DNA of 62,934 nt, counting the filler, from Collodictyon triciliatum (Eukaryota), in the NCBI GenBank assembly GCA_043381765.1. It is 5 parts of 5 records of this genome, joined end to end, with 100 filler letters (N's around TTAATTAATTAA, not from the genome) between each part and the next. Parts side by side here need not be neighbours in the genome. Positions count along the whole stretch, not along the records: positions 25,225 to 37,735 come from JBHJMP010002149.1; 4 more parts are not named here. One strand, 5' to 3'. Positions 4,390 to 36,534 of this stretch are shown piece after piece. Position numbers and translations under genes: made by a program. The notes beneath the pieces are model-generated. The model searched no databases. It was given only the letters and a program-made list of their open reading frames with translations, and was not told where the DNA came from. How positions within the stretch are numbered: position 1 is the stretch's first letter; the number at the start of each line of letters is the position of its first letter.

Positions 4390-5448
4390 TATGTATAAAC
4401 GAGGGATTGATTTTTTTCCACCAACAGGCGAATCCCATGAAAAAAAGCCGAGTTGAGAAGAGAAAAGCAAACAGATCAAAAACGAACCTGAAAGCAAATC
4501 CAATTTCTAAGAGACGTTCTTAAAGTCTACGTTTGAAGGATCTCCATCGAAGTGATCTTACTGCGGGCAGAGCAACCAGAGATTCAATCACCCCGAAGCT
4601 CCTAGAAAGCATCACAAACCGCATGAGATTGGAATAGAATTCACTTAAAATTCTTAGTAACAGCAAAATGGATAGTCAGTTAAAGCTTCCATAAAAAAAT
4701 AAAAAAAAAATAGAATCAATGATATTTCATATAGTGTGTATGCGTGGCCAACGATGTTTTGCGACAGAAAGACTCGGAAATCCGGAATAGCCCCAGCTCT
4801 CCTTGGCTTTCGAATATTTGTAATGATGAGGGTCCTAAAACCTTTGCAGGAAGGAGGAATAGTTGAATTTAATGTTATTTGGATATGTAAATAAGTTTTC
4901 ATGGGTTTTGAATTTTGAGTTTTGGTCGGTTTGTGCGCAACATAACCCAGGGATTATGCTGGGCAAGACTAGAGTCATTCACATGAAGTTTTGCTGAAGG
5001 GACTCATCTTTGGCCCGTTCTTGTTTCTTTCATTTTATTTTTATTTGCCAGCTGTTGATAGACTACCCTATTCTCGATCAAGTCTTCTGACTTTCTGACA
5101 TAGGTAAAAGACTTGCTTAGGTATAAACCTCCGCTTTTTGTAGAAAAGAAAATAAAGGTATGTTTTCATGTTGTATTATTCAGTTTGCTTGACCTTATGT
5201 TGATCGGTGGTTTTTTTTTGTGTTTTGTTAAAAATAATGAGTGTCCAAGCAAAAGGGATTCAATAGATCAGTTGTATTGTGCTGGTCTTTTGGCTTTTGT
5301 TCTTGGTTGTCTGTGTGCTTTCGTCGGTGGAAATGTGCTTGTTGAGTGATCTGCTATATACACAGGTGAGCCGGTTTTTTTTTTTTTTTTTTTTTTTTGT
5401 TTTGTTTACTTTGAAATTGGGTGGGGTGTTGAAGAAGANNNNNNNNNN

Positions 5449-7149: not shown

Positions 7150-7830
7150 TTCTTTGCCATTTCATTTTGTTTATTTTTCTTTGCGTGTGGAGATGAAGTT
7201 CCTGTCTCCAAGGTGCCAGCCTTCTTTTGCACTAACGCTACTTGTTGGCCGGATGGCGGAGAAGTAGTCGGTAATCAGGAATTGCATCCTGCGGTTTGGC
7301 CTGTGGCCTGGGTTTTGTGCTTGCATGAGAGATACAAAGCGAGGTTTAATATCTTTCTCAGCCTCTTTCCACATGTTTCTTCTCACGGGGTCTGAGTAGT
7401 AGAGAACGTGCAGGCGGCGAAGGAAGTCATTGAGGAAAGAGATGTGTATGATGTCATCCAGCCTGTTATCAGGAATGGGTGGCTGGTTGTTGAATCTTGC
7501 CTTGCGTGAGTATATGGGTGCTATCCACATAGTCCATAGCAAATGGCCTCGCGTCACTGCCCATAATGTTTTTGCATCTGGATGCAGCTGTTGCAGAGGC
7601 CCAAATATGGCCTGGATTGGGCCAACAGCCGCAGCCGTCTTGAGTGTCAGTCGAAGAATCTCGCCAGCTGTTTCGCGCAGGTTTTGAGCGAACGGACATT
7701 GCACAAATGTGTGCTCAATGGATTCATCACCGTTGCTGCAAAGTGTGCATTGTTGCGAGACTTTGCCAGCTTTTGTCGCGCGTGTGCCTATCCATAGCTC
7801 CCTATTGATGAGATGATATAAAGCAGCCGA
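7150..7830 (-). mobile_element. 5'-truncated L1/Tx1-like LINE, ORF2 C-terminal region with zf-RVT-type CCHC zinc finger
   Basis: ORF 7171-7908 contains CTLC-x5-SIEHTFVQC and a ...LLWTMW... motif typical of the L1-clade ORF2 C-terminus. Related copies lie at 3347, 20560 and 42086. The ORF's N-terminal ~25 aa look like flanking DNA. Confidence 0.85.
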
Positions 7831-9388
7831 AAACATTGCCAAAGCAAAATAAATGCAAACCATATCATAAAAAAAAGCAAATGATTCACTCTGTATAATA
7901 TCGACCATATAATATTTTGTGTTCTCTTATGAATGTGGCATGTGAAAAAAGAGAGAACGAGTATGAGTCGTATGTTATGCCATCCCGCCTAGTAGTGTAT
8001 ATCCAAAACAACATGTCTTATGGTATATGTCCAGTGATAAGTAGCATTCAGTGGCGTCCATTCAGTCGTGTGCCCCATCAAGACGGATTGAACACAGTTC
8101 TATTATATTCATAAATATAAAGCTTCTTGAAACATATACCATTTTTTACTGTCTACTTTTTTGTATCATAAATATTTGTGTGCAACGCGACTGGGCAAAT
8201 AACAATAAAGCAAAAAATAAGAAATTGACTCTACCTTTGCTTTGCAATCTCCAAAAAAACACGTCTGATATGCTTCGCTTCTTTGCTAATCACTTGTATT
8301 TCTTTTTTGCTCTTGTTTTTAGGTCATAGAGCTCATATTTGTTTGACGCTATAATCCGCCCATTTGTCTACCAATATATATTAACGTGCGATTTCATTTG
8401 GTGTTTTTCTACAGTGTTATGTCGAGAAACCAAATCCGTAGAAAACGTTTTTACCTGTGGGCACATAAATTTACACAGGCTAATTTTGAAAGATATTTTT
8501 TAATTTTTTTTCTTGATTATTACATATGTTGAAGTTTATAATGGTGAATAGGTTAATAACTAAATAATGTTTTCAATATATATAGACATAGTCACATGAA
8601 AATTTTTAGTAGGCAGCCAACTTATATGACTTTTTGGAGGGTGCTTACTGTATGGATAGCTTGGTTTCTTCGTATCGAGGATTTTATAGATGTATAATCT
8701 GATTTACCTTTTTAATACCCATTCGGACTTGAATACTGTATATAAGCAACATATTACAACCAACATATCGATATACTTTTTCATGAAAAAAATTAATCAA
8801 ATACAATCAAAAATTAAAAAATATTCGTAATAAATCAATTTAAAAAGGATATTGCCAATGCTGTCAGGAACTCTTTTATAATTATGAAATAAATATTTGA
8901 TTGCTTTCATAAGCATGCTTACGATAAAGAATACCAACAGTGCGAGACTATCTTAAGTCTATGAGATATTAGTTGTAAATTGATCATTCAGGTTATCGAG
9001 CAAGATTAATACATTATGAAACATATAAAACAGCATACAATTTTTAATATATTCATACAAAATATTTTTAATTATATGTCATGGCTAATGCATTGTTGGC
9101 TTTGTATATGTAATCATCATACGCTGAATAATCAAAATACAGTCCCTATGAGACTGGAATATCGATACTGTTGTTCACTTAAAAATTATTAATAAATCAA
9201 TACTCCATGAGACACGCTAGCTGTGACGTTGACCACGAAGTCGAGACCACGGCGTAAAGGAATGACTATGTAAATTATTATTTTCTCTCTTTTTTTAATT
9301 TGTATAAGCCTCGATTGTTTGACCTGACATAGTAATATATTGTTTAGATGCATTTAAATAATCATACACATAATCGATACGATTATTT

Positions 9389-12515: not shown

Positions 12516-12615
12516 NNNNNNNNNNNNNNNNNNNNNNNNNNNNNNNNNNNNNNNNNNNNTTAATTAATTAANNNNNNNNNNNNNNNNNNNNNNNNNNNNN
12601 NNNNNNNNNNNNNNN
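12516..12615. other. Artificial contig-joining linker (44 N + TTAATTAATTAA + 44 N)
   Basis: The identical 100-nt six-frame-stop spacer recurs at 25125, 37736 and 50342 and separates contigs of about 12.5 kb. Confidence 0.97.
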
Positions 12616-13475: not shown

Positions 13476-13753
13476 CGGGGGCGTTCTTTCTTCTGGTCGT
13501 GCTTCTTGATTCCCTTAGAAATTCCTCGCAGAAGCCGGGCGAGCTATTTTCCACATCAAGAGTAGGAAATCTGGTATGATTACAGTGCATGGTGGATTGT
13601 GGAAGTTTGGAGATCAATCTCTTTCGAGCAGCATGCGGGGCAATGATTGAGTCTGCTAAAAAGAAAAAGTGGAAGCAGGAAACGGAAACAGTTGTTTTCA
13701 TAATTGCAGCATTGTTTGTGAAATATGCCATGGCAAAACAGCTAAAATAAAAA

Positions 13754-13824
13754 TGCATTGTCCGGGAATCGAACCCGGGTCGACAGCTTGGAAGGCTATC
13801 ATGCTGCCACTACACCAACAATGC
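13754..13824 (-). tRNA. trnG-UCC: tRNA-Gly (anticodon TCC)
   Basis: Reverse complement GCATTGTTGGTGTAGTGGCAGCATGATAGCCTTCCAAGCTGTCGACCCGGGTTCGATTCCCGGACAATGCA folds as a cloverleaf, with GCATTGT/ACAATGC acceptor stem, TCC anticodon and GGTTCGATTCC T-arm. Confidence 0.97.
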
Positions 13825-14107
13825 ATCTGTCATCGTTCTCAGTAAATATCATATGATATAATTTTCGTTATTTTCTGGTTTGTTTTTTCATTTTTTGGTT
13901 CCTTTGCAGTTTTGTTATTGGGTTGCGTTCGTGAAAGGTCAAAGGCTGCCGACACAAGAAGATTATGTGATCACACAAGCAATGAGTATTGATGCCCTCA
14001 CTTAACCAAACCTGGTAGTTTGTTACATATAATTAATCCAGAGTATTTATTTGCAAAACTATTTTCCGCATTTATTTTTTTATTTTTTAACTTTACTAAG
14101 GGAATCA

Positions 14108-21138: not shown

Positions 21139-21923
21139 TTATTTGGTCTCATCAAAGGAGGGATTTGGTGCGTAGATAGGAATATTTCGACCTATATTGC
21201 GCGGATATATCTTTGAGTTTAATTTTGCAACTCTCTGCGTGAAAGTATCTTCGTTGGGATAAGAGCTGCCTTCTGGCGGAGCCCATATGAAAGTGTTTGG
21301 AATGTCGCCAGCAGATGCAGGTTTTTCCATCTGGACTGGGACTTGAAAAATAAACCCCCGCCCCTCGATGTCCCTTTCCACGTCTCTGGTTTCCGTCAGG
21401 TCTTGGGCCAGTGCGCGGTATCCTCGCTTGATGTGAAAGGCTGCTTTCTTCCATTTCTTTCCCATTTCCTTTAAGAAAGCTTTGTTGTCAAAAGGTAGTC
21501 CTTCACGGCGCTTCATCATTCTCATGTGAGAAACAAAAGCCATGAACGCATTTATCGGGCGCTTATTCCTCTCCCTTTTCAACGCCGTCCTCATTGATTG
21601 GCGTTCTTCAAGCCCCAAAGGACCTGGCTCCGTCTCTCCCAACATACTCTGCACTTGTTCTCCTGTTTAATACAAACGATGTCTAATTAAAACAGCGTCA
21701 GATGACCCTTATTCCAATCGAGACAAAATAAATTGAAGCAAAATGCAGCCAACAAACACAAACCTGTTTCTGGCCCAGAAAATGATGCAACATTGAGCTG
21801 TGCACTTTCTGCAGTGCTTCTTTCATACATTGTTTCTCTCTCATACCTGAGACCGTCTCGTGAGATTTTGTGACATACAGACGAAGGTAGTGACTTGAGT
21901 TCATGGCGGCTGGCTGCATCCAT
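21139..21923 (-). CDS. Single HMG-box transcription factor (SOX/TCF/MATA-HMG-like); one intron at ~21664-21764
   Basis: RNKRPINAFMAFVSHMRMMKRREGLPFDNKAFLKEMGKKWKK...YRALA matches the HMG-box consensus. Splice ACAG|gtttgt...aaacag|GAGAA keeps frame. The start may be at 21923 or 22013. Confidence 0.85.
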
Positions 21924-25124: not shown

Positions 25125-25224
25125 NNNNNNNNNNNNNNNNNNNNNNNNNNNNNNNNNNNNNNNNNNNNTTAATTAATTAANNNNNNNNNNNNNNNNNNNN
25201 NNNNNNNNNNNNNNNNNNNNNNNN
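25125..25224. other. Artificial contig-joining linker
   Basis: 44 N + TTAATTAATTAA + 44 N. Confidence 0.97.
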
Positions 25225-25279
<55 letters not shown>

Positions 25280-28200
25280 AAAAAAAAACAAAAAACAAAA
25301 AAAAACAAAAAAAAACAAAAGAAAAACAGAAGCGCAGATATGATTAGGCTTATAGAATTAATACTTTTAAAAATTTTTGTTATAATATTCATAAGCCCTT
25401 GCATTTACCTTGGGTTTTGTTGGTTATATATCAAAGTCCTTGATTTCCAAACAAAAAATACTTATTTATTATGGTATATACAAAACCATAAAGGTCTCCT
25501 GCGGTAGTTTTTAGGGCTCATACTTTTCAAGTGCGACAAGCCAAGTCCGTTGGGGTCATACGGACCATAAAGGCTTTTTGAAGAAGCATATCATTTGCAA
25601 ACTCCCATAAGTGTATTGTTTTCATTATATGATTCATATTCAGTGTACCTTCATAGAAGCTCGAGTCCATATGTTATGTATACAATTGTTAGCGCACATT
25701 GCTAATATTCTCATCCTTCATGTTGTTAGTGCAGTTTTCCAGACGGAGACGTGGTGACAAAGTCCTCATTGTTGCGCTGCCTACATTACGGTCAAATCGC
25801 TGTTTTCCCCGTACAAACAGACAATTGATTATTGATCTAATTCTTTTGCAAAAAGATTTTTAACACAATTTTGAATTCATATTGGATGGTAGAAAAAAAT
25901 GAAGATTTTAGTTTGCCTAATTGACAGAATCAAAGTAATTTAGCGGAATTTTATTGTTTGCCTAGACTATATGCGCACCAGGTCTACGATTTCGCGGTAA
26001 GGGATTTGAATATCATGTTATGAGTATGAATGGAAATCATATTGAATTATCATTATTTTTAATAAATTGTTTTATACATTTATCCCTATAAAAGGCATTT
26101 TGTGGGAGTAAAGCGAGTTTGAAAATAATTCGGTTGTATATTATGTGTTGAAAGCGATTTAATACTATAATTTTTCCAAGGGAAATCCTATCTCGGGCAC
26201 AAAAGCTGTCTGAATAAGTAGTGAGTTTACATATTATAAATTTTAAATTACATTCATGGACCACAATTGTAAGTATAAACTAATGTTTAGCAGTATTGTG
26301 AGATATATTGGACTTTTATCTGAAAAAAATACATTATCAGATATACCTCACTCTTCTGCTATGCGGTACTGTTAACAACGCACTGGAACTATTCCGCTCG
26401 TAGTTCGTGATCAATTGCCTGCAATTGAAGTTTGATTTTTAGGTGAGATGCCCTCTTATGCGCAATTATATGATTTTTTGACCTCATATAATATACCGAT
26501 AATTTTTACTTTTTACTCTTCCGAAATTGTTGATTCGCCAATATTAAAATCCACCTCAAAAATCCGTGATAGAGAGACGAATCACTTATTTTTGAACCTT
26601 GGTTTGCAATATGAAGGCGGATGTCGCACATAGGTCACAAGCTCTTTTTTATCATTATTTAATTTTATAACCCATTATTCATACTTCAAAATCGAAATCT
26701 GAATTAAAATTATTCCATCTTAGAAGCTAACTACTATCTACATCGCGTACTATTCACATTTATCATATTATCGAAACGAATTTTTCTGTTTTTCTTGAAC
26801 TTATTATGATTGATGTCAGCGACGAAGACGTTTTTTTTCTTGCATTATTATACTGTTAACTACTAAGATCATTAAAATACAATTACATCATATGGTCAAT
26901 TTTTTTCATCCATACCTATATTTTCTCACAATATAAACTGATTGATTTTATATTGATTTTGTATATTAAGTAACGATGGAATAGCACGCTTCCTGAATGG
27001 TATTTTATATCAGCTGTAATAGAGGTGGATCAATTTTTGTTCATCCTTGCATCTATTCTCGTACTTTTAATAATTTAGTAGTACATTTGTAAGCTTCATA
27101 AGGATTTTATTGATGTATTTAATTCCGCTCATTTGATTTACTATGGACTGAATATTATTTAAATTCACAATAAAATTTTCACTTCCAGGTTTATAATCAG
27201 AAAAGTGGTTTTCCTATGCCTTATTTCAGAATTAGTATGGTAGAGAATTTGTAAAACCTTAATCAAAGTGAATATTTTATTATTTTAAAACATTATCGAT
27301 TTGTTATTATGAAATGTAAGATTATCATACATAAATATATGCTCATTTACAAGAGCACTTAATATTGATTTCATAATGCATTGAAGTTACCCAAAAAACT
27401 GGCACAATCTTATGGAATCTCGTCTAGTGACACACAAAATGTTACAAATTCTACTCAGATTTATTTTGTATTTAGTCTATGACAAAGAGGCGCTTCTTTT
27501 TTTAGAACCATACACATTAAAAAAATTTTTTTAATACTTCTCAATCGTAAAGAAACAAATGTAAATTTTTAAAACTTTGTTTCACACAGAATTAACCTCT
27601 GTGATGTCGGAAGGAACGTAATTACAGACTTCATCCCCAAAATCAGAATATTTCTTCATTATCTTACCTATTTTGCATATAATTTTAAACCATAATTATT
27701 TATACTTTGCCATTATGAAAATTGTAGATATCAAGCTGATGTAATATAATTTATAGTTTAAGATAGTGAATATATTTTATATAAATTTGAACTGTTTTTA
27801 AATTGAAAATCTTGAAGTTAGCTGGATTTTTTCTGATCCCTTCTTTTTTTGGATTTTGAATAATTCCAAAACTACTTGAAAAAATTATATTTGGTTTAGC
27901 CACAGAAATGGGGTTTCATTATTTCACCCAGAGCTTTTTAGTATATTCATAAATATGATATAAAATACAAAAATTCTTGCTATGAATACATTTGTTGACC
28001 GATATTCCATTTTTATTTTTAAGTTAAAAACAGGGATACATTTCCACAATTCGCATATAGTCGTAAATCTCAACAATCAACTATAATATCTAAGAATTTT
28101 ATTTATTCTCTTGTTAATTATGGAGAAAATTTTCATTTAATTCTATTTCATATAATAATTGGATAATGGGACATAAATATAAGTAATTGGTCAGTGTGTT

Positions 28201-28621
28201 GCTTAAGTTTTATCAATAATGATATAATGTCTAATTCAAATATTTCAAAAACCAAAACGAATGAGAATGGTATCACAGAATCAACAATAACTATCTAATG
28301 ATAACTCTTCTCATGTAAAATAGGGTTTTTAAAAACATAGTATTATAAATCAAACAATTTTACACATACTCTCATTTTCGATAAATCAGTTTATTAGATA
28401 CTATGTGGGAGATTCTTTATTGGCTGTCGACCTTTTTCAAAATGGACCGTGCTGATTATTCTTGTGTCTGGTGAGTAAAATATCAGTGAGAGTTATGGAT
28501 TCAAATTTTACACTTATTCAATAATTGAAACAGGAAAGGGATGTCTGCTTCAGAAGATAGTAGAAACTCCGTCCGACGCAATTATTTTCTCGAATGGAAA
28601 AATCCTCCTCTCAAAAGATCA

Positions 28622-31600
28622 ATGACGTAATATTTGTAAAATCAAAAAAATCATCAATTAGAATTAGTATCTCATTGACTTTGCATACAGAAGTTCAAAG
28701 TTGTTGGTTGCGTTTGTTGTCATCGCTTTTAAAGTGGCATCTGCATCCTCAATTCACCCACATCAAAGGTATATTTTGATTTATCACGATGTATAAAATA
28801 CACTTTGGACTCAAATAAAGAAAACAGATGTGATTATTCAAGAGATGAGTTGCTTTCCATGAAAATCGAAGATGCATTCCAAATTCTGCTGAGCTACTAC
28901 GATGAGGCATGTCCTTTGTTAAAAGCAAGTGAGGAGAATTTTTCAGGATTGATGAAGAACCACAAAGATGGAGAATACTCGCTACAAACTGAACATGGTG
29001 CTGGATGGAATCATGAAAGCAAGGAGCTCAATACTGACTTGAGTGCCTTCGTTTACAATCACTCACCAAAAATAAACGGGAGTGAGCAGTTCGTTTTTGG
29101 TGATGAATTGAGCCGAAGTGTGGCCGATAACAATACCATGAGTCAATACGAACTCCTCGTTCAGCTTTACCAAATACTTGGAGGTGATAATTGGTTTCAG
29201 AATACCAGGTGGAACAATATAAACATTCCGATTTGTGAATGGTTTGGGATAGGGTGCCATCAAAGCTGTTCGGTTGAACAATATTGGGTAAGTACTTAAA
29301 TAATTATAAGCTTATTTTGATATTTGTTTAACATGTTTATGTTACGTTTATAGGATAATACATGCCCTATATTAAGGATCAGTATGTCAGGAAACAAGAT
29401 TAATGGTGACATTGAAGCTGCCTCTGCAATTTTCGAGAAGCTCCAATTTTTGGATTATTTGGACGTTAGCTACAACTTCATTTACGGAAATCTTCCAGAC
29501 TTAAATCTCCCAAGTATTACGTATTTGAGCCTTTATGGAAATGGAATTACCGGAACGATTCCAGACTTTCAAGCAATGCCGAATATTGAACATCTTGAGA
29601 TTGGTGGGAATGAATTGGAAGGAACAATACCGGATTATTCTGGAATTCAGTTGTTGAAGAGCTTATATATTAGTGGAAGTGAAAAAACCAAAGGTATCAA
29701 GTAATTTTTAATATGATTTTTTTATGAATCCTAATGATATAATTCTACTCAGGAACTCTTCCTGATTTCTCGGGATTGCCAAATGTTCAGATTCTTGGGA
29801 TTTATGAGTGCAACATTCATGGTATATTTTTTATTCGATTAAATGTGATAGTATACAAGCCTAACTTGTATTTTTTCAGGCACAGTTCCAAACTTCAGTG
29901 GCATTCCAAAAGTTTTTGAGATGTTTCTTAACAGCAACCAATTGACTGGTAGTTTTATGATTATTTCATACATTTTTTCAAATAAAAGCTAACATTTTAG
30001 AACAGGGACAGTTCCAGACTTCAGTGGAATTTCAAACATTAAATACATCGATCTTTCGAATAATCAATTGAATGGTAATTTTCTATGATTATTTCATGTA
30101 TTTTTGATAAAAACACTGAATTTGTCTTACAGGAAAAGTTCCTAACTTCAGTGGAATTCCAAATGTTTTATGGGTTTATCTTGACATCAACCAATTGAAT
30201 GGTATGACTTTATGATTATCTCATATATTTTTGAAGGAATACTAACTTCATATTACAGGAGCAGTTCCAAACTTTGGTAGAATTCCAAATGTGGAAGTAG
30301 TTGGGTTTTCCATCAACCACATGACAGGTATGATTTTATGATTATTTCATAGATTATTGAATGAATACTAACTTTAAATTACAGGAGCGGTTCCAAACTT
30401 CAGTGAAATTCCAAACGTTGAAATGATTGCACTTTACAATAACCATTTTAATGGTATGATTTTATGGCTATTTAATGTGTTATTGAAGTATTAATAATTT
30501 TTTATTACAGGAACGGTTCCAAACTTCAGTGGAATTCCGAATGTTGAAGAGATTTATCTTTCCAACAATCGATTAACAGGTATGATTTTATGATTATTTC
30601 ATTTAATATTGAAAACTGATTAACTTCATTTTAAAGGAACGGTTCCAAACTTCAATGGCATTCCAAATCTTAAAGGAATTTATCTCCACAATAATCATTT
30701 GACTGGTATTATATCATGATGGGTTTCATTTACTATTGAAGGAATATTTTTTTTCCTTTATTCGATCTATTGAAGGAATATTAATTTTGTATTTAGGAAC
30801 GGTCTCAAACTTCAATGGAATTCCGAATGTTAGGATGATTGCGCTTTACAATAACCAGTTTAATGGTATGATTTTATTATTTTTTTTCCTTTATTAATGG
30901 TATGATTTTATTATAATTACATGCATTATTGATGAAAACTAACTTTTTATTACAGGAACGGTTCCAAACTTCAGTGGAATTCAGAATGTTGAATGGATTT
31001 TTCTTCACAACAACCATTTGACTGGTAGGTATTTATGTGTAAGGAGATGTCCTTTTATTCTGTTATAAGCTTGTTCTATGATTCTCAACCTATTAACGAG
31101 TCGACGGACTCGTTTAAAATCCCTTGAACAAAGGGTTCAGGGGAGGTTTCTGAGAACGTTCCTGGAGCGTTCCACGGTAGTTTTTTGAACTGATTATAAG
31201 AACATACCGGGAGAATTCCGAGATGGGTCTTAGAATTAGTTCAGAGACTCCAAGGACGCACTTGGGTGTCCAGTTGTTACATTATGATAGACTTATTTCG
31301 ATTATTGCAAAACTGACTTTATGTTACAGAAATTATTCCAAACTTCAGTGATATCCCTATTCTCGAATGGATTCAACTTTACAACAACCAATTGACTGGT
31401 AAGTGTTTAATGTTTATTTCATGTAATATTGATACCGAACTAACTTTATACTATAGGAGCTGTTCCAAACTTCAGTGAAACTCTAAATGTTATGAGAATT
31501 GATATCGGCGGAAACAGTTTGAATGGTCAGTTCTTATTACATTATTTTATTTTCATACTTCCTTTAATTTTAAAAATTGTAATTTTAGGTACGATTCCAA

Positions 31601-34452
31601 AATTTTCAAATCTGCGTAAACTGGAAATTATTTCTGTTCATAATAATCAGTTGGAGGGAGAAGTTCCAGATTTTAGAGATTGCGAAAACATCAAGGAAAT
31701 AGTATTGTTCCGAAATAAGTTGTCGGGCACATTGCCAATGTTTAATCTTAATAGTCTGACTAGGCTGGATGTGAGCGAAAACCAAATCAGTGGCTCTATT
31801 CCAGAATACTGGAATGTGCCTTCAATTCAATACATTGACTTGTCGTGGAACCACATGGAAGCCACAATACCAGATCGCTTTCAGGAATTCTATGAGCTGA
31901 AGTCACTCGTTTTATCCCACAATAAATTCTCTGGAAGCATGCCGAGGCAATTCTGGGAACTGCCGAATCTAGTGACGATTGACTTGAGAAACAACTCATT
32001 TTCTGGAGATATTGGCATCTTCGTCGTTCCAGATGATGATGAATACGATTATTTTTATGAAAACCTTTTGCTTGATGATAACCAATTGAATGGAGAACTG
32101 AATTGGAGACTTTTTAACTATATTATCAACGTAAAAAAATTAAGTTTGAAGAACAATTATATCACGAGGATTGATGAACTTACAAATCTTATTACATGGA
32201 CTTCCCTTGACCTCACCGGAAATCCGATTGTCGGCAATATTCCTGAATCTTATGATTTATTCATCAAGCTTGAGTATTTAGGCTTGAAAAATACGAGCAT
32301 GAATCATGGTTCCTCATATTTTCTTCCCTTCTTTATGAATATCACTGACTCCTACAATTTGGAAAGGACGACAGACAGGTATGCATGTCCTTCCGTTGTC
32401 TCTCGTTCAGGTTTGATTGAAATGGAAGTGAACATGGACCCAAAGTATCACGACTATGGGATGTGCAAATGCTTACCTGGTTACTTTGGATATGGAAACA
32501 ATTGTGTGAAGTGTCCAAGAGAATGTGAATGTAGTGATGGCGTTTCCTTAGAAAAGTGCTATTTCACACCAGACGTTCTCAAGATAGTCCAGATAGTTCC
32601 GTGCATGAATCCGGACGTGTGCAGATTTTACATTCCAGAATCAATGTCAGAGAGAATGCTCATTAGCAACAATACTTATGATTTTCCGTGTGAAAAGGGA
32701 TATACTGGGAGAAGTTGCTCTATTTGTGAGGATGGATACTTATTTGAGGATGGAGAATGCAACGAATGCTCTTCTGATTACTCAATACTCAAATTGATTG
32801 CTTTCTTTGTGCTTCTCACAATTGGTGGGCTGTATCAAATTGGTTTGGCATGGATTGAAGAAAGCATGGATGATAACGGAGACGATGAAGTAAATGAGGA
32901 TGAGCATGATTCAGGTAATCTAATTTTTATTATAAATTCTTATTTCTTTTTTATTCCATTTCTTTTTCCATTATGAATGCATGTTTCTAAAATTATGTGA
33001 TATCACAGCCTCCCTAGACATATTTCTGTTTTACACTCAAATTCTGCAAGTATTGGGGAACATTGTCTCTTTATCCTTCATAACATCTGCTGGGAGATTT
33101 GTAAGCAACCTGTTTTCACTAAAGTTACCTTCCATTGAGTGCATCGTCGGCAACAAACCGCACATTACATCGATTCTTAACCTTTCTCGCATTCCTTTTA
33201 TTACTTCTGTCGCTTTCCTTATCCTGAAGAGGACACTTGTGAAGAAAGATACAAAAAATATCGAAAAGGTGGGATAAAAGCATCAGATAGTTTTTATAAA
33301 ATGATCAATTATATTTTCTCACATTACATTAAATATCGCGTATAATTATAGGTTGTTGCTATTACATTTACATTCTTGGAAGGAACATATTTTTCTGTTG
33401 TACGAGATGTTGTTGGTGCTTTTGGTTGCACCCTCTATGATGAAGGACTGGATACATGGTTCGTAAACTTGTATCCTTGGATTCAGTGCAGCCCGGTGAC
33501 AGATAACTATGTAAAGTTGCTTCTCTCTGCTATTCCTGGCTTGATTTACATATTCCTGTATCCCAGCTTTCTATGGTACATCATTTTAAGAGCCAGGAAA
33601 TTGAGGCAAAAAGAAAATGGTATCCCCATGGAAAGGCTGAAGAATCTCGGTGATGATCAAGAGATTCCGGCTACTGGGGTAAATTTGCCTGACAAGGTTG
33701 TAAGTGAAACTGGGCCAAGCGATTCCGAGAGACAAATACCTCAATACCATCATGCATCGTCAGATAATCGTGTGGATTTGTCCATGAACCCATTCCAAGT
33801 AGCATGCCAGATTCTGATCAATCGATTTGCTGATATTTACGAGGAGGTAATCATTATATACCAATCGCATAAAGGTGTGATGAAATTACTTATTCTCATT
33901 ATTTAAAAAGAAACGCGACTGGTGGGTCATGGTTCGAGTTATTCAATCAGTTCTCTTCAGTTTGACAGCTTTTGTCGTCCCTTACACATACTCAGCCATC
34001 CTCTACTTTATTTTCTTCATTCTGATACAGGTTTGTTGTTATTTTTACATATGTATCATTGTCCATTTAATTAGGAAATTTATCTTGTTGATAATTTTAA
34101 TTTTTTATAGTTCTCCCTATCGATGCAGAATCGGTACCAGCCATACATTCTTGATTCGGATGACTCTTTTTCCACGAATTGTTGGTTGCTGCTGTACATC
34201 TCTTTCTTTTCAGCTCTCGTTCAAAAACTTCTGCCTGGAAACGATTGGATATCATATGCGATTATTGGACTAAATTCCATTTTCATTACAGCTTTTATTG
34301 TTCCTTTTGCATGGACTATACTGAAACCTCTGTTAAGTTGCTTTTCAAGAAACAATTTCGGGCTAAGCAAAAAAAGGATATCACATTTCAAAAGCAAAAT
34401 AGAAGCTTACAAGGAAAAATTCGCCAACATCGTCACGAATCACACACAGTGA
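28622..34452 (+). CDS. LRR-containing receptor-like protein: signal peptide, LRR N-cap, many LRRs, Cys-rich (EGF/furin-like) region and multi-pass (about 7) TM domain; 21 exons in this model
   Basis: Spliced model: ATG 28622 (MTSSKLLVAFVVIAFKVASA), N-cap NW..NTRW...CEWFGIGC, twelve 69-nt LRR exons at 29753-31525, exon 31589-32914 (LRRs plus CKCLPGYFG, CEKGYTGRSCSICEDGY), then TM exons to TGA 34450-34452. All junctions checked are GT-AG and keep frame. An upstream in-frame start at 28403 is also possible. Confidence 0.9.
29753..31525 (+). repeat. Tandem exon+intron array (unit about 126 bp) of single-LRR exons
   Basis: 69-nt exons start at 29753, 29880, 30006, 30133, 30259, 30385, 30511, 30637, 30797, 30956, 31330 and 31457. 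The introns are homologous (GTATGATTTTATGATTATTTCAT...CTAACTT..TTACAG). Confidence 0.95.
31038..31281 (-). mobile_element. Solo LTR inside an LRR-gene intron
   Basis: 244 bp bounded by TGTAA...TTACA, with a perfect 5-bp TSD TTATG (31033-31037 and 31282-31286). TATA-like and AATAAA motifs lie on the minus strand. Confidence 0.8.
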
Positions 34453-34769
34453 CTCTCCGACTCTTGGGTTGGAATTAAAAAGAAGCACTTCAATATTAAT
34501 GATCAAGTGCATTCAAGTGTTGAGACACGAATAAAAAAATTTACTGAAAAAATTGAAATGGGAAAGATATATATGCTTTGTTACATTTTTATCATATTTT
34601 AATACGATTAAATTAAAAGCGATTGAGAATGAGAGAAATAGCAAGACCCAACATACTTTAAAACCATGATTCGAGCGATATCTTTATATACATTCGCACA
34701 ATGTACTCATATTAGACATCCTTCAATAATGCATATTTGAAGAGTTTTTGCATACCAAACTTGTTGACT

Positions 34770-36534
34770 AAGTTCCATATGGGTAAATGAAAGCTTCAAC
34801 CAAGCTTCCTGCGCCGAATGAAAAACGAAAAGCGAACCGTCGAAGGCTTTGCAAGTTGCAGCCAGTTCTTCTGCTTCCAACACTGGCGCGTAAAAACCAC
34901 GAGTTGCACGTAAGTCTAGAAAGATCCGTGCAAGGAAGCCGCCTGCAAGTCTGTCTGATCGGACAGTATTTTTGCACGGGGTCGAGCAAGTCGTTTACAA
35001 CAAGAACAAGGCCCACAGACTCACAGATACGCTCGCCTCCTTCTTGAAAGCGAACAAATTTTGGGAAGAGTCCATCCAACTGCGCTTACCGGACAGCAAA
35101 GGCATTTGCCTGATTGCCTTCCGCACTGCAGAAAACGCCCAAAAGCTTCTGGAGCTGAAGCAGATAAGTTTAAGTGATATTACGAACAGCTTCAGCAGAA
35201 GTAAACCAACAGAGACCTCGGTGATGCTCTACCAACTACCGCTGGACGTGTGGCTGCAACACCTTCGTGAGGAGCTGAAGCCGTTCAGACCGACCCACGT
35301 GGAGATCAAAAAGGACAAAGGCTTCTTCACAGACACAGCCGTGGTGAAGCTTCTCTACCACAAGAATTAGCTCCCTGAAAAGTTTACGGTCATGGGCAAA
35401 AAGTGTCCAAAGCGCATTCTCAAAGAGCGTCCACCAGCTGCAATAACGAACGACAAGTAAAAGCCCCGCAAAAGAATACACCTGCCAAGCAGATAAGCAG
35501 CAACGGGTCAAGGAAGCCAAGGCCAGGCAACAACTGAGCCCGCAAGACTCACAGCAGATACACGCATACAGCGACAGCAACGATGACATGGAAGGAAATC
35601 TCGGTTCCTCTTCAGAATCCTCGCACTCGAGCCCTCCATCGCCAATACTGGACAAGCCCGAACATCGCAAGACCCAAGAGCAGCGCATCTCCAAACCCCG
35701 AAAGAAATCCCCCCTTAAACTACCCATTCAGACTGATGTGAATATGGTTAACATAGGAGGCCTCAAGGCAGTCTTCGTTGCTCATCCGAAAGGATACTCC
35801 AAAGCAAAGGCAACACAAGAACCAGCGCCCACCAAAGATAGTCCGTTTATCCTGCCCCAGCCCGTCGCACCGAGAACCAAGGAGCATGAGCAAACAGCAC
35901 AAGTCGAATCCAAGCTTGGAACTTCACACACCAAAGACAGTCCGAGCAAGCAGAAGCATATGTTTCTAAAACCACAAACGCGTATCCATACTCCGGTTAA
36001 GCAAAGTCCACTGCCGGCTACGCATGGTTCCGAAACCAGGGGACGGTCAAGCGCCACTTCCGATAATTCCGGACAAACAACGATGTATCGCTTTCTGTCA
36101 GAGTCGCCCAGCAAGAAATGAAAGGAAAGTGACCCATTGTCTCCTCAAAAGACTCATGCTATGGAATGAAATAGGATGTTAACCTTGTCTGAGACAGATG
36201 GTTGAAAGGACTCGTCGGAATCAATTTTGAGAAGTAACAGCCGTGTGTGTACTTTCATCGATCTCACAACTTTATCCGCTCTTCTGTCAGTCTCGAATAC
36301 AACCAGAAATCGCGTTGGAGCTTATTCACCTCGGTTAGAATAGTCTGCGTGTGAGAACACTTTCTCTCCTTTCTATCTTGTTCTTTCCTTCACCCAAAAC
36401 ACAAAAACTCCAACCACACAATCCGGGGTTTTCCACTGTCTTGTCCACAGCTCATTTCTTGTCCTAGAGGCGAAGGCGGTTTCCTCAAATTTATTTTTTG
36501 TCAATAAACTGATGAAAAGAAACCAAAAAAAAAA
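34770..36534 (+). mobile_element. LINE-like element carrying a degenerate ORF1 (RRM-type plus low-complexity tail) directly followed by a 3' tail and poly-A, with no ORF2
   Basis: RTVFLHGV...ICLIAFRTAENAQKLL...VMLYQLPLDV...LREELKPF...TAVVKL...LPEKFTVMG resembles L1/Tx1 ORF1p RRMs. There are in-frame stops (e.g. TAG 35368) and a frameshift near 35440. Poly-A lies at 36525-36534, and a second copy is at 11855-12515. The 5' boundary is approximate. Confidence 0.75.

What the first reader, a model, noticed from the sequence alone, without database searches (positions are those of the whole stretch)
29753..31525. Twelve-unit cassette of symmetric 69-nt single-LRR exons with variable concave-face residues in a receptor gene
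Seen: twelve consecutive exons of exactly 69 nt (23 aa) are all phase 1-1. They are separated by mostly 57-63-nt introns that are homologous to each other, so exon and intron were duplicated as a unit. The scaffold GTVPNFSGIPNV is near-invariant. The x positions of xxIxLxxN differ between almost all units (FEMFLNS, KYIDLSN, LWVYLDI, EVVGFSI, EMIALYN, EEIYLSN, KGIYLHN, RMIALYN, EWIFLHN, EWIQLYN, MRIDIGG). Flanking LRRs of the same gene sit in ordinary large exons. Established: those x positions form the ligand-binding face of LRR solenoids, and one-exon-per-LRR arrays with shuffling are reported for Ectocarpus ROCO/NB-ARC genes. Inference: any unit can be skipped, duplicated or swapped without frameshift, making this a candidate diversity-generating recognition system (prey, pathogen or self) in a protist LRR/Cys-rich/multi-TM receptor.
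Basis: partly seen in the sequence, partly recalled or inferred. Interest (0 to 1): 0.75.

Follow-up and report, generated by a model that had tools for sequence, protein, structure and literature searches.

The report
Tandem single-LRR exon array in protist receptor
A surface-receptor gene of a freshwater protist has grown part of its leucine-rich-repeat binding domain by copying one small exon-plus-intron module about a dozen times, and the copies then diverged fastest at the residues expected to touch the ligand; similar gene architectures are already known from brown algae, Tetrahymena and vertebrates.

Summary
Twelve AG/GT-bounded exons of exactly 69 nt, all phase 1-1, lie at 29753-31525. 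Each encodes one 23-residue LRR. Eight of the 11 internal introns are 57-58 nt, and seven of these short ones are plainly homologous to each other. The array sits in an intact 22-exon gene (28403-34452, +). The gene encodes a signal peptide, about 29 LRRs, a Cys-rich module and a multi-pass membrane domain. Its full-architecture named relatives are all Diphylleia rotans transcripts. A fixed-sites codon model gives omega 1.8-3.1 at the five canonical concave-face codons. The likelihood-ratio statistic is 7-18, and 0 of 50 null simulations reached 7. The scaffold codons give omega about 0.4. Site-wise, only codons 13, 14, 16 and 18 exceed 1 at p of about 0.05 or less. The best reading is germline tandem duplication of a 126-bp exon+intron module, followed by selection for different binding-face residues. 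The proposed skipping or swapping repertoire has no support. RNA contigs do not cover the cassette, 0 of 26 D. rotans isoform pairs differ by whole repeats, and no docking-type intron pairing was found. Close precedents exist (Ectocarpus ROCO 72-nt exons, Tetrahymena 90-bp exons). This is a new member of a known kind and of moderate interest.

The parts
28403..34452 (+). Whole receptor gene model: 22 exons, all introns GT-AG, continuous 1469-codon ORF. The functional start is probably the ATG at 28622, which is followed by a hydrophobic signal-peptide-like stretch.
   Evidence: model, splice dinucleotides, open frame. (one collinear HSP with 14 of 14 D. rotans proteins). (a spliced RNA-type contig of run X1 joins 33846/33911 and 34030/34111 exactly as in the model).
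29354..29693 (+). Ordinary large exon (340 nt, phase 0-1) encoding about five LRRs upstream of the cassette.
   Evidence: (LRR_4 E 6e-11, LRR_8).
29753..29821 (+). Unit 1: a 69-nt phase 1-1 single-LRR exon. It is divergent (45-59% nt identity to the others) and the introns on both sides are not homologous to the rest.
29880..31525 (+). Units 2-12: eleven 69-nt phase 1-1 single-LRR exons (29880-29948, 30006-30074, 30133-30201, 30259-30327, 30385-30453, 30511-30579, 30637-30705, 30797-30865, 30956-31024, 31330-31398, 31457-31525) with their homologous introns. This is the tandemly duplicated 126-bp module.
30706..30796 (+). Intron 8 (91 nt): a 57-nt-type intron plus a 19-nt insert (core at 30748-30762) flanked by a 15-nt direct repeat.
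30866..30955 (+). Intron 9 (90 nt): the same 15-nt core (30881-30895) inserted at a different site. It is flanked by a 19-nt direct repeat that includes the last 4 nt of exon 9 and the 5' splice site, so a second GT lies at 30900.
31025..31329 (+). Intron 10 (305 nt): a 57-nt-type intron carrying an insertion of about 245 nt. The stretch 31035-31274 matches multi-copy contigs in three runs.
   Evidence: depth 20-41 in X1 and X4, with contigs in X1, X2 and X4 at about 90% identity. (the intron ends align with the other introns). (no second copy in the window, no Rfam family, no inverted repeats, no tRNA).
31589..32914 (+). Large exon (1326 nt, phase 1-1): about 13 further LRRs, the Cys-rich module and the first transmembrane helix.
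   Evidence: (residues 1-404/415 align to D. rotans family members).
33009..34452 (+). Four 3' exons (33009-33268, 33352-33846, 33911-34030, 34111-34452) encoding the rest of the multi-pass membrane domain. About 6-8 hydrophobic helices are predicted in all.
   Evidence: (transcribed and spliced in run X1).

Best explanation
The cassette is a constitutively spliced part of the LRR ectodomain of a cell-surface receptor. The protein has a signal peptide, an N-terminal domain, an LRRNT-like cap, about 29 plant-type 23-residue LRRs, a Cys-rich DUF7630-like module and a multi-pass membrane domain. It belongs to a family so far seen by name only in the collodictyonid Diphylleia rotans.

Eleven of the twelve single-LRR exons (units 2-12) arose in the germline by repeated tandem duplication of a 126-bp module made of a 69-nt phase-1 exon and a 57-nt intron. 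The most likely mechanism is unequal crossing-over between the similar introns. The founder was a single-LRR exon already flanked by phase-1 introns at the same position of the repeat.

After duplication the fold-determining scaffold stayed under purifying selection. Four residues of the beta-strand face (repeat positions 13, 14, 16 and 18) changed faster than neutral sites. This means selection favoured different concave-face residues in different repeats, re-tuning a ligand-binding surface over evolutionary time.

What is shown: the anatomy, the duplication as a unit, the intact and partly transcribed gene, the family, and the rate excess at the x codons. What is inferred: unequal crossing-over as the mechanism, constitutive inclusion of all twelve exons, and ligand binding (prey, microbe or self) as the function.
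For: - Exact 69-nt exons, phase 1-1, with GT-AG everywhere.
- 126-nt tandem period.
- Homologous introns with p = 0.29.
- All 13 introns of the LRR block, from 29694 to 31588, are phase 1 and interrupt the junction codon at the same place in the repeat.
- The spliced model is one open frame. It aligns collinearly in a single HSP with 14 of 14 D. rotans proteins (E from 1e-113 to 0). The cassette alone matches their LRR regions (E from 3e-19 to 1e-51).
- The 3' exons are joined in an RNA-type contig at the predicted junctions.
- Fixed-sites MG94xHKY model. With the introns as an extra neutral class, omega_x is 1.81-2.45 against omega_scaffold 0.36-0.40, with 2dlnL of 7.0-18.0 on four tree/intron combinations. 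Without the introns, omega_x is 2.2-3.1 with 2dlnL of 7.5-15.9. With the four-codon set, omega is 2.13 with 2dlnL of 9.6.
- Parametric bootstrap under omega_x = 1: 2 of 50 replicates reach 3.84 and 0 of 50 reach 7.0.
- Site-wise, codons 13, 14, 16 and 18 have omega 2.1, 2.6, 9.0 and 2.4. No other codon is significantly above 1, and 11 of the other 18 tested codons (codon 1, the junction codon, was left out) are significantly below 1.
- 224 of 582 pairwise amino-acid differences (38%) fall in 5 of 23 positions, against 22% expected if uniform.
- Introns 8 and 9 carry independent insertions that the other units do not share. This argues against recent homogenisation of the array.
- LRR-domain span varies from about 22 to 36 repeats among six D. 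rotans paralogs that could be measured. Unit gain and loss is therefore part of the family's history.
Against: - The selection test rests on 11 sequences of 22 codons whose tree is almost unresolved. Only units 6+9 group, at 73-81% support.
- The region was flagged because these positions look variable, so there is ascertainment.
- Codon models can overstate omega at fast sites when several bases of a codon change.
- The only supported sister pair (units 6 and 9) has just 1 of its 6 amino-acid differences in the x set.
- The gene has the same LRR-domain span as its best-matching D. rotans relative P0159 (28.9 repeats in each) and aligns to it without large gaps. Pure 'expansion' therefore needs a matching loss of older repeats, or the similarity of the units is partly due to concerted evolution.
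- Constitutive splicing of the cassette is not shown. RNA contigs barely touch it.
- No ligand or function is known for any member of the family.
Confidence: 0.65

Rival explanations
1. Splicing repertoire. The symmetric exons are alternatively included (skipped singly, in blocks or in a mutually exclusive way), so that one gene yields many receptor isoforms with different binding faces. This is the first reader's diversity-generating system, analogous to the alternative splicing of LRR exons reported for brown-algal ROCO genes.
For: Every unit is 69 nt and phase 1-1, and 11 of the 12 junction codons stay Gly whichever units are joined. A precedent exists: Ectocarpus genes with LRR exon arrays have multiple splice variants with different LRR combinations (passages of PMC11378527). 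Intron 9 contains a duplicated 5' splice site.
Against: No isoform evidence was found. 0 of 26 D. rotans Trinity isoform pairs of this family differ by an internal indel of one or more 23-residue units. Their differences are terminal truncations, alternative C-termini and small indels of 5-30 residues, although short-read assemblies resolve repeats poorly. All splice sites are canonical, with a conserved branch-point-like CTAAC in the homologous introns. No complementarity above shuffled controls was found between the flanking introns and the cassette introns (mean z of -0.5 and -0.3, with no pair beyond z = -1.9). Short introns favour intron definition, under which exon skipping is rare (general knowledge, not tested). 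Using the second GT in intron 9 would add 34 nt and break the frame.
Confidence: 0.1
2. Concerted evolution without positive selection. The array is old. Gene conversion or unequal exchange keeps scaffolds and introns similar, while purifying selection preserves each unit's own old concave-face residues. The apparent omega above 1 is then produced by homogenised 'neutral' sites and not by accelerated change at the x sites.
For: The total LRR span equals that of the best-matching D. rotans relative (28.9 repeats each). Exon and intron similarities are discordant: introns 4 and 5 are 89% identical while their flanking exons are 68-70% identical, and units 6+9 group by exon but not by intron. The sister pair of units 6 and 9 shares all but one of its x residues.
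Against: Neutral sites are not recently homogenised (intron K of about 0.37 and scaffold dS of about 0.55). A Sawyer-type run test finds no globally significant conversion tract (best global p = 0.09), and the longest runs lie in the conserved scaffold and the 5' part of the intron. The insertions in introns 8, 9 and 10 are each private to one unit. Sparing a 21-nt x segment while converting the 48 nt plus 57 nt around it would need many short tracts. The flanking LRRs of the same gene have no introns, so an ancestral intron in every repeat is not the simplest history.
Confidence: 0.18
3. Non-functional or mis-assembled repeat: a decaying pseudogene segment or an assembly artefact of a repetitive region.
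For: The window contains N runs and retroelement remnants. RNA contigs scarcely cover the cassette.
Against: All 12 exons are open with intact AG/GT sites, and the 22-exon frame is continuous over 4410 nt. The scaffold codons show purifying selection (omega of about 0.4, with 11 codons significantly below 1). The units differ from each other by 16-43% in nucleotide sequence, so collapse or mis-joining is unlikely. No N lies within 28403-34452. The 3' part of the gene is transcribed and spliced.
Confidence: 0.03

Closest known systems
Brown-algal (Ectocarpus, Saccharina) ROCO genes with one 72-nt exon per LRR (Zambounis et al. 2012, PMC3341825; Teng et al. 2024, PMC11378527; passages read)
   Same: One plant-type LRR (GxxPxxL...LxxLxLxxNxL) per exon of constant length. 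All introns are in one phase. The array grew by exon duplication or shuffling. Positive selection is inferred at beta-strand positions. The genes are proposed recognition receptors.
   Different: The exon is 69 nt and phase 1 here, against 72 nt and phase 2 there. Here it is an extracellular ectodomain on a multi-pass membrane protein with no ROC-COR GTPase. No inactivated or inverted LRR exons lie in the introns. No splice variants are documented. The lineage is unrelated (relatives in Diphylleia, CRuMs).
[quoted passage not shown] 2019, PMC6564038; passages read)
   Same: Tandem arrays of exons of exactly one length with one intron phase, explained by clonal expansion of an intron/exon unit through unequal recombination. 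Retroelement remnants sit in the LRR introns (here in introns 8, 9 and perhaps 10).
   Different: There the exon is 90 bp and phase 2, and a 30-residue repeat is not in register with the exon. That family has thousands of genes. Here exon and repeat are in register (69 nt for 23 residues) and there is one array in one gene in this window.
Vertebrate glycoprotein-hormone receptors / LGRs and NLRs with exon-modular LRRs (LH receptor mentioned in PMC11378527; NLRP3 paper PMC6642158 seen only as the start of its abstract in a search listing)
   Same: LRRs are encoded by separate in-phase exons. The LRR ectodomain is followed by a Cys-rich hinge and a multi-pass membrane domain (LGRs). The exon modularity permits alternative splicing (NLRP3).
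   Different: No 7tm_1 or other GPCR signature was found in the membrane ORFs or in the relatives. The Foldseek matches of the modelled membrane domain to GPCRs are insignificant (E of 0.67 or more, TM of about 0.2).
Diphylleia rotans LRR-DUF7630-multi-TM proteins (EukProt EP00002 Trinity proteins P0007, P0155, P0156, P0159 and others)
   Same: Same architecture end to end, with collinear alignment at 25-34% identity. Same 23-residue LRR type, Cys-rich module and conserved membrane-domain motifs.
   Different: In the two relatives whose repeats were listed (P0156 and P0007) the repeats are all well diverged from one another. The run of near-identical scaffolds is special to the window's gene. 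Their gene structures are unknown because only transcripts are available.
Plant LRR receptor kinase ectodomains (GSO1, FLS2, HAESA, BRI1; PDB)
   Same: They are the best solved-structure matches of the family's LRR region (E from 1e-135 to 1e-72), with the plant-specific LRR consensus and an LRRNT-like cap.
   Different: The repeat is 23 residues, not 24. There is no kinase. The membrane part is multi-pass.
Lamprey VLR assembly and insect Dscam mutually exclusive splicing (recalled, not read here)
   Same: The idea of recombining repeat modules to diversify a binding surface.
   Different: The gene here is complete in the germline, with canonical splice sites on every unit. No docking/selector pairing was found. 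No evidence of somatic rearrangement is available.

Membership tests
Leucine-rich repeat (plant-specific-type LRR) | Repeats with LxxLxLxxNxL followed by GxIPxx, recognised by the Pfam LRR models | tested here: met
   The flanking exons hit LRR_8, LRR_4 and LRR_1 (E from 2e-19 to 6e-11). The cassette units carry the motif by direct reading. The spliced cassette matches the LRR regions of 14 of 14 D. rotans relatives. Single 22-residue units alone are too short: 3 of 10 give weak LRR_8/LRR_4 hits below the cut-off.
Exon-modular LRR arrays evolving by exon duplication/shuffling (Ectocarpus ROCO type) | One LRR per exon of constant length, with all flanking introns in one phase | tested here: met
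   12 of 12 exons are 69 nt, and 13 of 13 introns of the block are phase 1. The length and phase differ from the 72 nt and phase 2 of the algal genes.
Exon-modular LRR arrays evolving by exon duplication/shuffling (Ectocarpus ROCO type) | ROC-COR GTPase signalling domain | tested here: not met
   No Roc or COR family was found in any ORF of the gene or in 6 full-length relatives. The C-terminus is a multi-pass membrane domain.
Exon-modular LRR arrays evolving by exon duplication/shuffling (Ectocarpus ROCO type) | Spare, inactivated or inverted LRR exons within the introns | tested here: not met
   A six-frame motif scan of the whole window finds LRR units only in the coding register of this gene. 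The two reverse-strand motif hits inside the region have stop codons and no LRR motif.
Exon-modular LRR arrays evolving by exon duplication/shuffling (Ectocarpus ROCO type) | Excess non-synonymous change at beta-strand (concave) positions | tested here: met
   omega_x is 1.8-3.1 with an LRT of 7-18, and 0 of 50 null simulations reach 7. Site-wise omega is above 2 at codons 13, 14, 16 and 18. Caveats are given in the report.
Exon-modular LRR arrays evolving by exon duplication/shuffling (Ectocarpus ROCO type) | Alternative splice forms with different LRR combinations | not testable with these tools
   The RNA-type contigs hardly cover the cassette. The indirect check on the D. rotans relatives gave 0 of 26 isoform pairs with whole-unit indels.
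Tetrahymena 90-bp-exon LRR genes | Exons of exactly 90 bp separated by phase-2 introns | tested here: not met
   Here the exons are 69 nt and phase 1. The feature is as described in passages of PMC6564038.
LGR / glycoprotein-hormone-receptor type LRR-GPCR | Rhodopsin-like 7TM domain after the LRR ectodomain and Cys-rich hinge | tested here: not met
   No 7tm family at E of 0.1 or better in the membrane ORFs, nor at E of 1 or better in 12 relatives. An AlphaFold model of the relative's membrane domain (pLDDT 75) has no PDB match at E of 0.001 or better, and the best GPCR hit has E 0.67.
Diphylleia-type LRR-DUF7630-multi-TM receptor family | Collinear architecture: signal peptide, LRRNT-like Cys motif, 23-residue LRRs, Cys-rich module and a conserved multi-pass domain | tested here: met
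   A single HSP of 893-1368 columns with 14 of 14 family members. The membrane ORF 33352-33624 matches at 37-39% identity (E about 1e-16). DUF7630 itself is detected in 8 of 12 relatives but not in the window's exon at E of 0.1 or better.
TRP (PF06011) fungal/protist TRP-like membrane domain | Match to PF06011 over the multi-pass domain | tested here: inconclusive
   Only 3 of 12 relatives match, and weakly (best E 0.0012). The language-model look-alike clusters carry PF06011 in only 12-15% of members (score 0.95). There is no structural confirmation.
Dscam-type mutually exclusive exon cluster | A docking site complementary to selector sequences in each cassette intron | tested here: not met
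   Duplex energies of either flanking intron against introns 1-11 are no better than those of shuffled controls (mean z of -0.51 and -0.34).

The most novel reading that the evidence does not exclude
The twelve symmetric exons may be used combinatorially. This could happen by regulated skipping or by frequent germline or clonal unequal exchange between the homologous introns. Individual cells or clones of a predatory flagellate would then display different LRR binding faces. That would be a protist recognition repertoire for prey, symbionts, pathogens or mating partners, built on an LRR / TRP-like membrane receptor, and a fourth independent invention of modular LRR diversification in a deep-branching lineage (CRuMs).
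Probability: 0.08. Interest if true: 0.8.

Novelty: new member of a known kind. Interest (0 to 1): 0.42.

Why it matters
Arrays of one-repeat exons in a single intron phase are the classic substrate for exon duplication and shuffling. For LRR proteins they have been described in brown algae, Tetrahymena and vertebrates.

Finding the same solution in a receptor family otherwise named only from Diphylleia rotans adds an independent case from a barely sampled branch of eukaryotes. Here the exon length is different (69 nt), the phase is different (1), and the exon and the structural repeat are in exact register.

The homologous introns also provide an internal neutral yardstick. Few repeat proteins allow that. 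Measured against it, only the four canonical binding-face positions evolve faster than neutral.

The result also points to a large, uncharacterised family of LRR-bearing multi-pass receptors in a predatory flagellate. These are candidates for prey or microbe recognition. The mechanism itself is not new, and no function has been shown.

Tried and rejected
- Whole genome: none is held for this window, so paralogs and genome-wide exon statistics could not be examined.
- RNA evidence: no RNA holder is listed. The four runs found are contig sets with small shares of the query. When laid on 28700-34500 they cover the 3' exons, but in the cassette only scraps that look like paralogs. Exon inclusion or skipping therefore could not be tested. 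One 352-nt contig of run X4 carries LRR pieces whose starts fall on a 69-nt period. This is only a weak hint that such units are contiguous in a relative's RNA.
- Related loci: the protein-pattern scan of metagenome contigs with the Cys-rich/TM part gave 84 pattern matches, none confirmed. The two-unit DNA pattern scan gave 2 loci, neither containing LRR units. No comparison of unit number between strains or species was possible.
- The search for homologous proteins (longer proteins, residues 200-461) gave no hit. The word-index method evidently missed the relatives that the exhaustive search then found.
- Membrane domain: an AlphaFold model of D. rotans P0157 (pLDDT 75, pTM 0.69) has no PDB match at E of 0.001 or better (best E 0.4, TM 0.23). 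The PDB sequence profile search hits only the LRR part.
- Intron-10 insert: no Rfam family in 28000-35000, no inverted or direct repeats, no tRNA and no second copy in the window.
- Unit trees: the exon and intron trees of the units are nearly unresolved, so the order of duplications could not be reconstructed. The conversion-tract test was not significant.
- One search hit the time limit before the six-codon set was fitted.
- NG86 dS within the x codons alone is saturated (pS 0.72) and was not used as a reference.
- Earlier notes of this scan: three look-ups, nothing found.
- Supplementary tables of the three papers were not seen. They may hold exon and phase statistics relevant to how unusual 69 nt / phase 1 is.
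Full report

Yes. Each is open in only one frame, the one in which a single base left by the preceding exon completes the first codon. All twelve exons are therefore phase 1-1.

The eleven internal introns measure 58, 57, 58, 57, 57, 57, 57, 91, 90, 305 and 58 nt. Tandem Repeats Finder independently reports a 126-nt period (69 + 57) with 7.0 copies, 73% matches and score 696 at 29861-30740.

Introns 2-7 and 11 align end to end, including a conserved 5' part and a CTAAC branch-point-like box. The ends of the three long introns align too. Intron 1 and the two introns flanking the block are not recognisably related to these. Unit 1 is also only 45-59% identical in nucleotides to the other units, which are 57-84% identical to each other. 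The duplicated block is therefore units 2-12, and unit 1 looks like an older single-LRR exon.

In units 2-12, F6 and N20 are invariant and positions 1-12 are mostly conserved. Positions 13, 14, 16 and 18 have the highest entropies (2.2-2.7 bits).

**2. The gene around the cassette**

Joining open frames at canonical GT-AG sites gave, at the first attempt, a continuous 4410-nt frame of 22 exons from 28403 to 34452. The intron phases are 2,2,2,0, then fourteen times 1, then 0,0,0. The likely start is the ATG at 28622, because a hydrophobic signal-peptide-like stretch follows it. The two upstream exons may be 5' UTR.

The protein has:
- an N-terminal region with an LRRNT-like Cys motif;
- about 29 LRRs of 23 residues, of which five lie in a 340-nt exon, twelve in the cassette and about thirteen in a 1326-nt exon;
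- a Cys-rich module;
- six to eight hydrophobic helices.

A contig of run X1 joins 33846 to 33911 and 34030 to 34111 at GT..AG sites, exactly as in the model. At least the 3' half of the gene is therefore transcribed and spliced in an organism 99-100% identical over that stretch. No N lies in the gene. No second gene of this kind lies in the window.

**3. Family and organism**

An exhaustive HMMER search with the large exon found 62,190 LRR proteins. Hits that cover the LRR end plus the Cys-rich part (query residues 1 to about 404-415) are few. Of the 16 such hits that I looked up, 14 are Diphylleia rotans transcriptome proteins from different Trinity genes, and two are unnamed metagenome proteins at 48-50% identity.

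The spliced model aligns in a single collinear HSP with 14 of 14 D. rotans proteins (25-34% identity, E from 1e-113 to 0). The cassette by itself matches their LRR regions.

The relatives carry LRR_4/LRR_8/LRR_1 and, in 8 of 12, DUF7630. PF06011 (TRP) is matched weakly by 3 of 12 (best E 0.0012). Language-model look-alikes of the C-terminal part are clusters with Ephrin_rec_like, DUF7630 or, in 12-15% of members, PF06011. This is a lead and not a finding.

An AlphaFold model of the membrane domain of a relative (pLDDT 75) has no significant PDB neighbour.

The window is a low-GC (27-43%) eukaryotic sequence with 57-94-nt introns, most likely from a collodictyonid or a relative. It is probably not the sequenced D. 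rotans strain itself, because no near-identical protein turned up.

**4. How the array arose**

Exon and intron are repeated together with a 126-bp period. The intron always interrupts the same codon of the repeat. The flanking repeats have no introns.

The simplest history is a founder single-LRR exon bounded by phase-1 introns, multiplied by unequal exchange between similar introns. This is inferred, not shown.

The units are not very young. Intron divergence is K of about 0.37 and scaffold dS is about 0.55. Their tree is nearly a star, and only units 6+9 group (73-81% support).

Three consecutive introns have since taken up insertions that are private to each:
- Introns 8 and 9 carry the same 15-nt core at different sites. 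Each copy is flanked by a 15-19-nt direct repeat.
- A third copy lies at 43261-43275 on the other strand and is also flanked by a direct repeat.
- Read on the opposite strand, the core is an AATAAA signal followed by A7. All three look like extremely 5'-truncated retro-insertions with target-site duplications, and the two in the gene are antisense to it.
- Intron 10 carries an insert of about 245 nt. It is multi-copy in three independent contig sets.

These private insertions argue against recent homogenisation of the array.

**5. Is there an excess of amino-acid change on the binding face?**

I fixed the partition in advance from the LRR consensus LxxLxLxxN. The x positions are unit positions 13, 14, 16, 18 and 19.

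Pooled Nei-Gojobori counts over the 55 pairs of units 2-12:

| Site class | p-distance |
|---|---|
| x codons, non-synonymous (pN) | 0.54 |
| scaffold codons, synonymous (pS) | 0.39 |
| scaffold codons, non-synonymous (pN) | 0.18 |
| introns | 0.29 |

A fixed-sites MG94xHKY likelihood model with shared branch lengths gave the results below. The no-intron fits were run on three trees (exon, downstream-intron and star); in these, omega_scaffold was 0.42-0.44.

| Neutral reference | omega_x | omega_scaffold | 2dlnL vs omega_x = 1 | p |
|---|---|---|---|---|
| Introns as explicit neutral class, four tree/intron combinations | 1.81-2.45 | 0.36-0.40 | 7.0-18.0 | 0.008 to 2e-5 |
| Synonymous sites only (no introns) | 2.2-3.1 | 0.42-0.44 | 7.5-15.9 | not listed |
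| Four-codon set | 2.13 | not listed | 9.6 | not listed |

In 50 data sets simulated under omega_x = 1, 2 reached 3.84 and none reached 7.0 (maximum 4.2).

Site by site, codons 13, 14, 16 and 18 have omega 2.1, 2.6, 9.0 and 2.4 (p 0.05, 0.007, 0.0002 and 0.05). Codon 19 is about 0.9. Eleven scaffold codons are significantly below 1.

Results against this reading:
- The data set is tiny and the tree is poor.
- The region was picked because it looks variable.
- The one supported sister pair (units 6 and 9) has only 1 of its 6 differences in the x set.
- The LRR span equals that of the best-matching relative. This leaves room for concerted evolution with old, conserved x residues. A Sawyer-type test found no significant conversion tract (best global p 0.09), but its power on 126-nt units is low.

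Under either history, selection has favoured different residues at these four positions in different repeats.

**6. Is it a diversity generator?**

Nothing beyond the arithmetic of symmetric exons supports this.
- The RNA contigs do not cover the cassette.
- In the D. rotans relatives, 0 of 26 same-cluster isoform pairs differ by whole repeats.
- There are no spare or inverted LRR exons in the introns.
- No docking/selector complementarity was found.
- All splice sites are canonical.

I put this reading at about 0.1.

**7. Comparison with what is known**

- Ectocarpus ROCO genes encode each LRR in a 72-nt exon. They show shuffling and positive selection on the beta-strand face (passages of PMC3341825). 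Later work gives phase 2 and reports splice variants, and notes the in-phase LRR exons of the LH receptor (passages of PMC11378527).
- Tetrahymena has tens of thousands of exactly 90-bp LRR exons with phase-2 introns, explained by clonal expansion and associated with a LINE-like element (passages of PMC6564038).
- The present array is the same kind of thing. It differs in exon length and phase, in the exact exon-repeat register, in carrying an extracellular domain on a multi-pass receptor instead of a cytoplasmic GTPase, and in lineage.
- Searches of the held library for 'Collodictyon' with 'leucine-rich repeat' returned 1 unrelated paper. 'Diphylleia rotans' with 'genome' returned 50 papers, of which the 10 listed are organelle or unrelated genomes. 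Two broader queries returned no description of this family or of LRR exon arrays in this group.

**Verdict**

This is a new member of a known kind, of moderate interest.

Noticed in passing
window 30748-30762, 30881-30895 and 43261-43275 (minus strand): The same 15-nt core occurs three times in the window. All 3 copies are flanked by 14-19-nt direct repeats. Read on the opposite strand it is an AATAAA signal plus A7, which suggests extremely 5'-truncated non-LTR retro-insertions with target-site duplications. Two of them sit in neighbouring introns of the LRR cassette, antisense to the gene.
   Followed up: partly
window 30896-30914: The target-site duplication in intron 9 copies the last 4 nt of exon 9 together with the 5' splice site. 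This creates a second GT at 30900. Using it would add 34 nt and shift the frame.
   Followed up: no
window 31035-31274 (inside the 305-nt intron 10): An insert of about 245 nt that matches multi-copy, high-depth contigs at about 90% identity in two RNA-type runs of different organisms and in a freshwater metagenome. It has no terminal repeats, no tRNA, no Rfam family and no second copy in the window. It is an unclassified dispersed repeat.
   Followed up: partly
window 12516-12615, 25125-25224, 37736-37835, 50342-50441; also 5439-5448 and 51167-51503: Pairs of 44-N runs separated by 12 bases recur every roughly 12.6 kb. There is also a 10-N run and a 337-N run. The regular spacing looks like masking or a scaffolding artefact and not biology.
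   Followed up: no
window 7171-7926 (-): An ORF with a zf-RVT domain (E 2e-8). It is a reverse-transcriptase-associated remnant, so non-LTR-type retroelements are present in this genome.
   Followed up: no
window 21139-21666 (-), 56531-57163 (-), 13753-13825 (-): An HMG-box ORF, a cyclin-domain ORF (Cyclin E 1e-13) and a tRNA-Gly(TCC) gene are the only other recognisable genes seen. Several other long ORFs have no Pfam match.
   Followed up: no
run X4, contig record 17 (pieces lying on 29750-29797, 30510-30548, 30510-30539, 29886-29910): A 352-nt contig from another organism of the same study carries LRR pieces whose starts fall on a 69-nt period with no intron-sized spacing. A related gene's units are therefore contiguous there, either spliced RNA or an intronless copy.
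   Followed up: no
window 29753-30705: Because 69 + 57 = 126 is a multiple of three, the reading frame is in register across successive exon+intron modules. This is why tblastn HSPs of relatives run straight through several units. Retained introns would nevertheless hit stop codons early (read directly from the sequence).
   Followed up: partly
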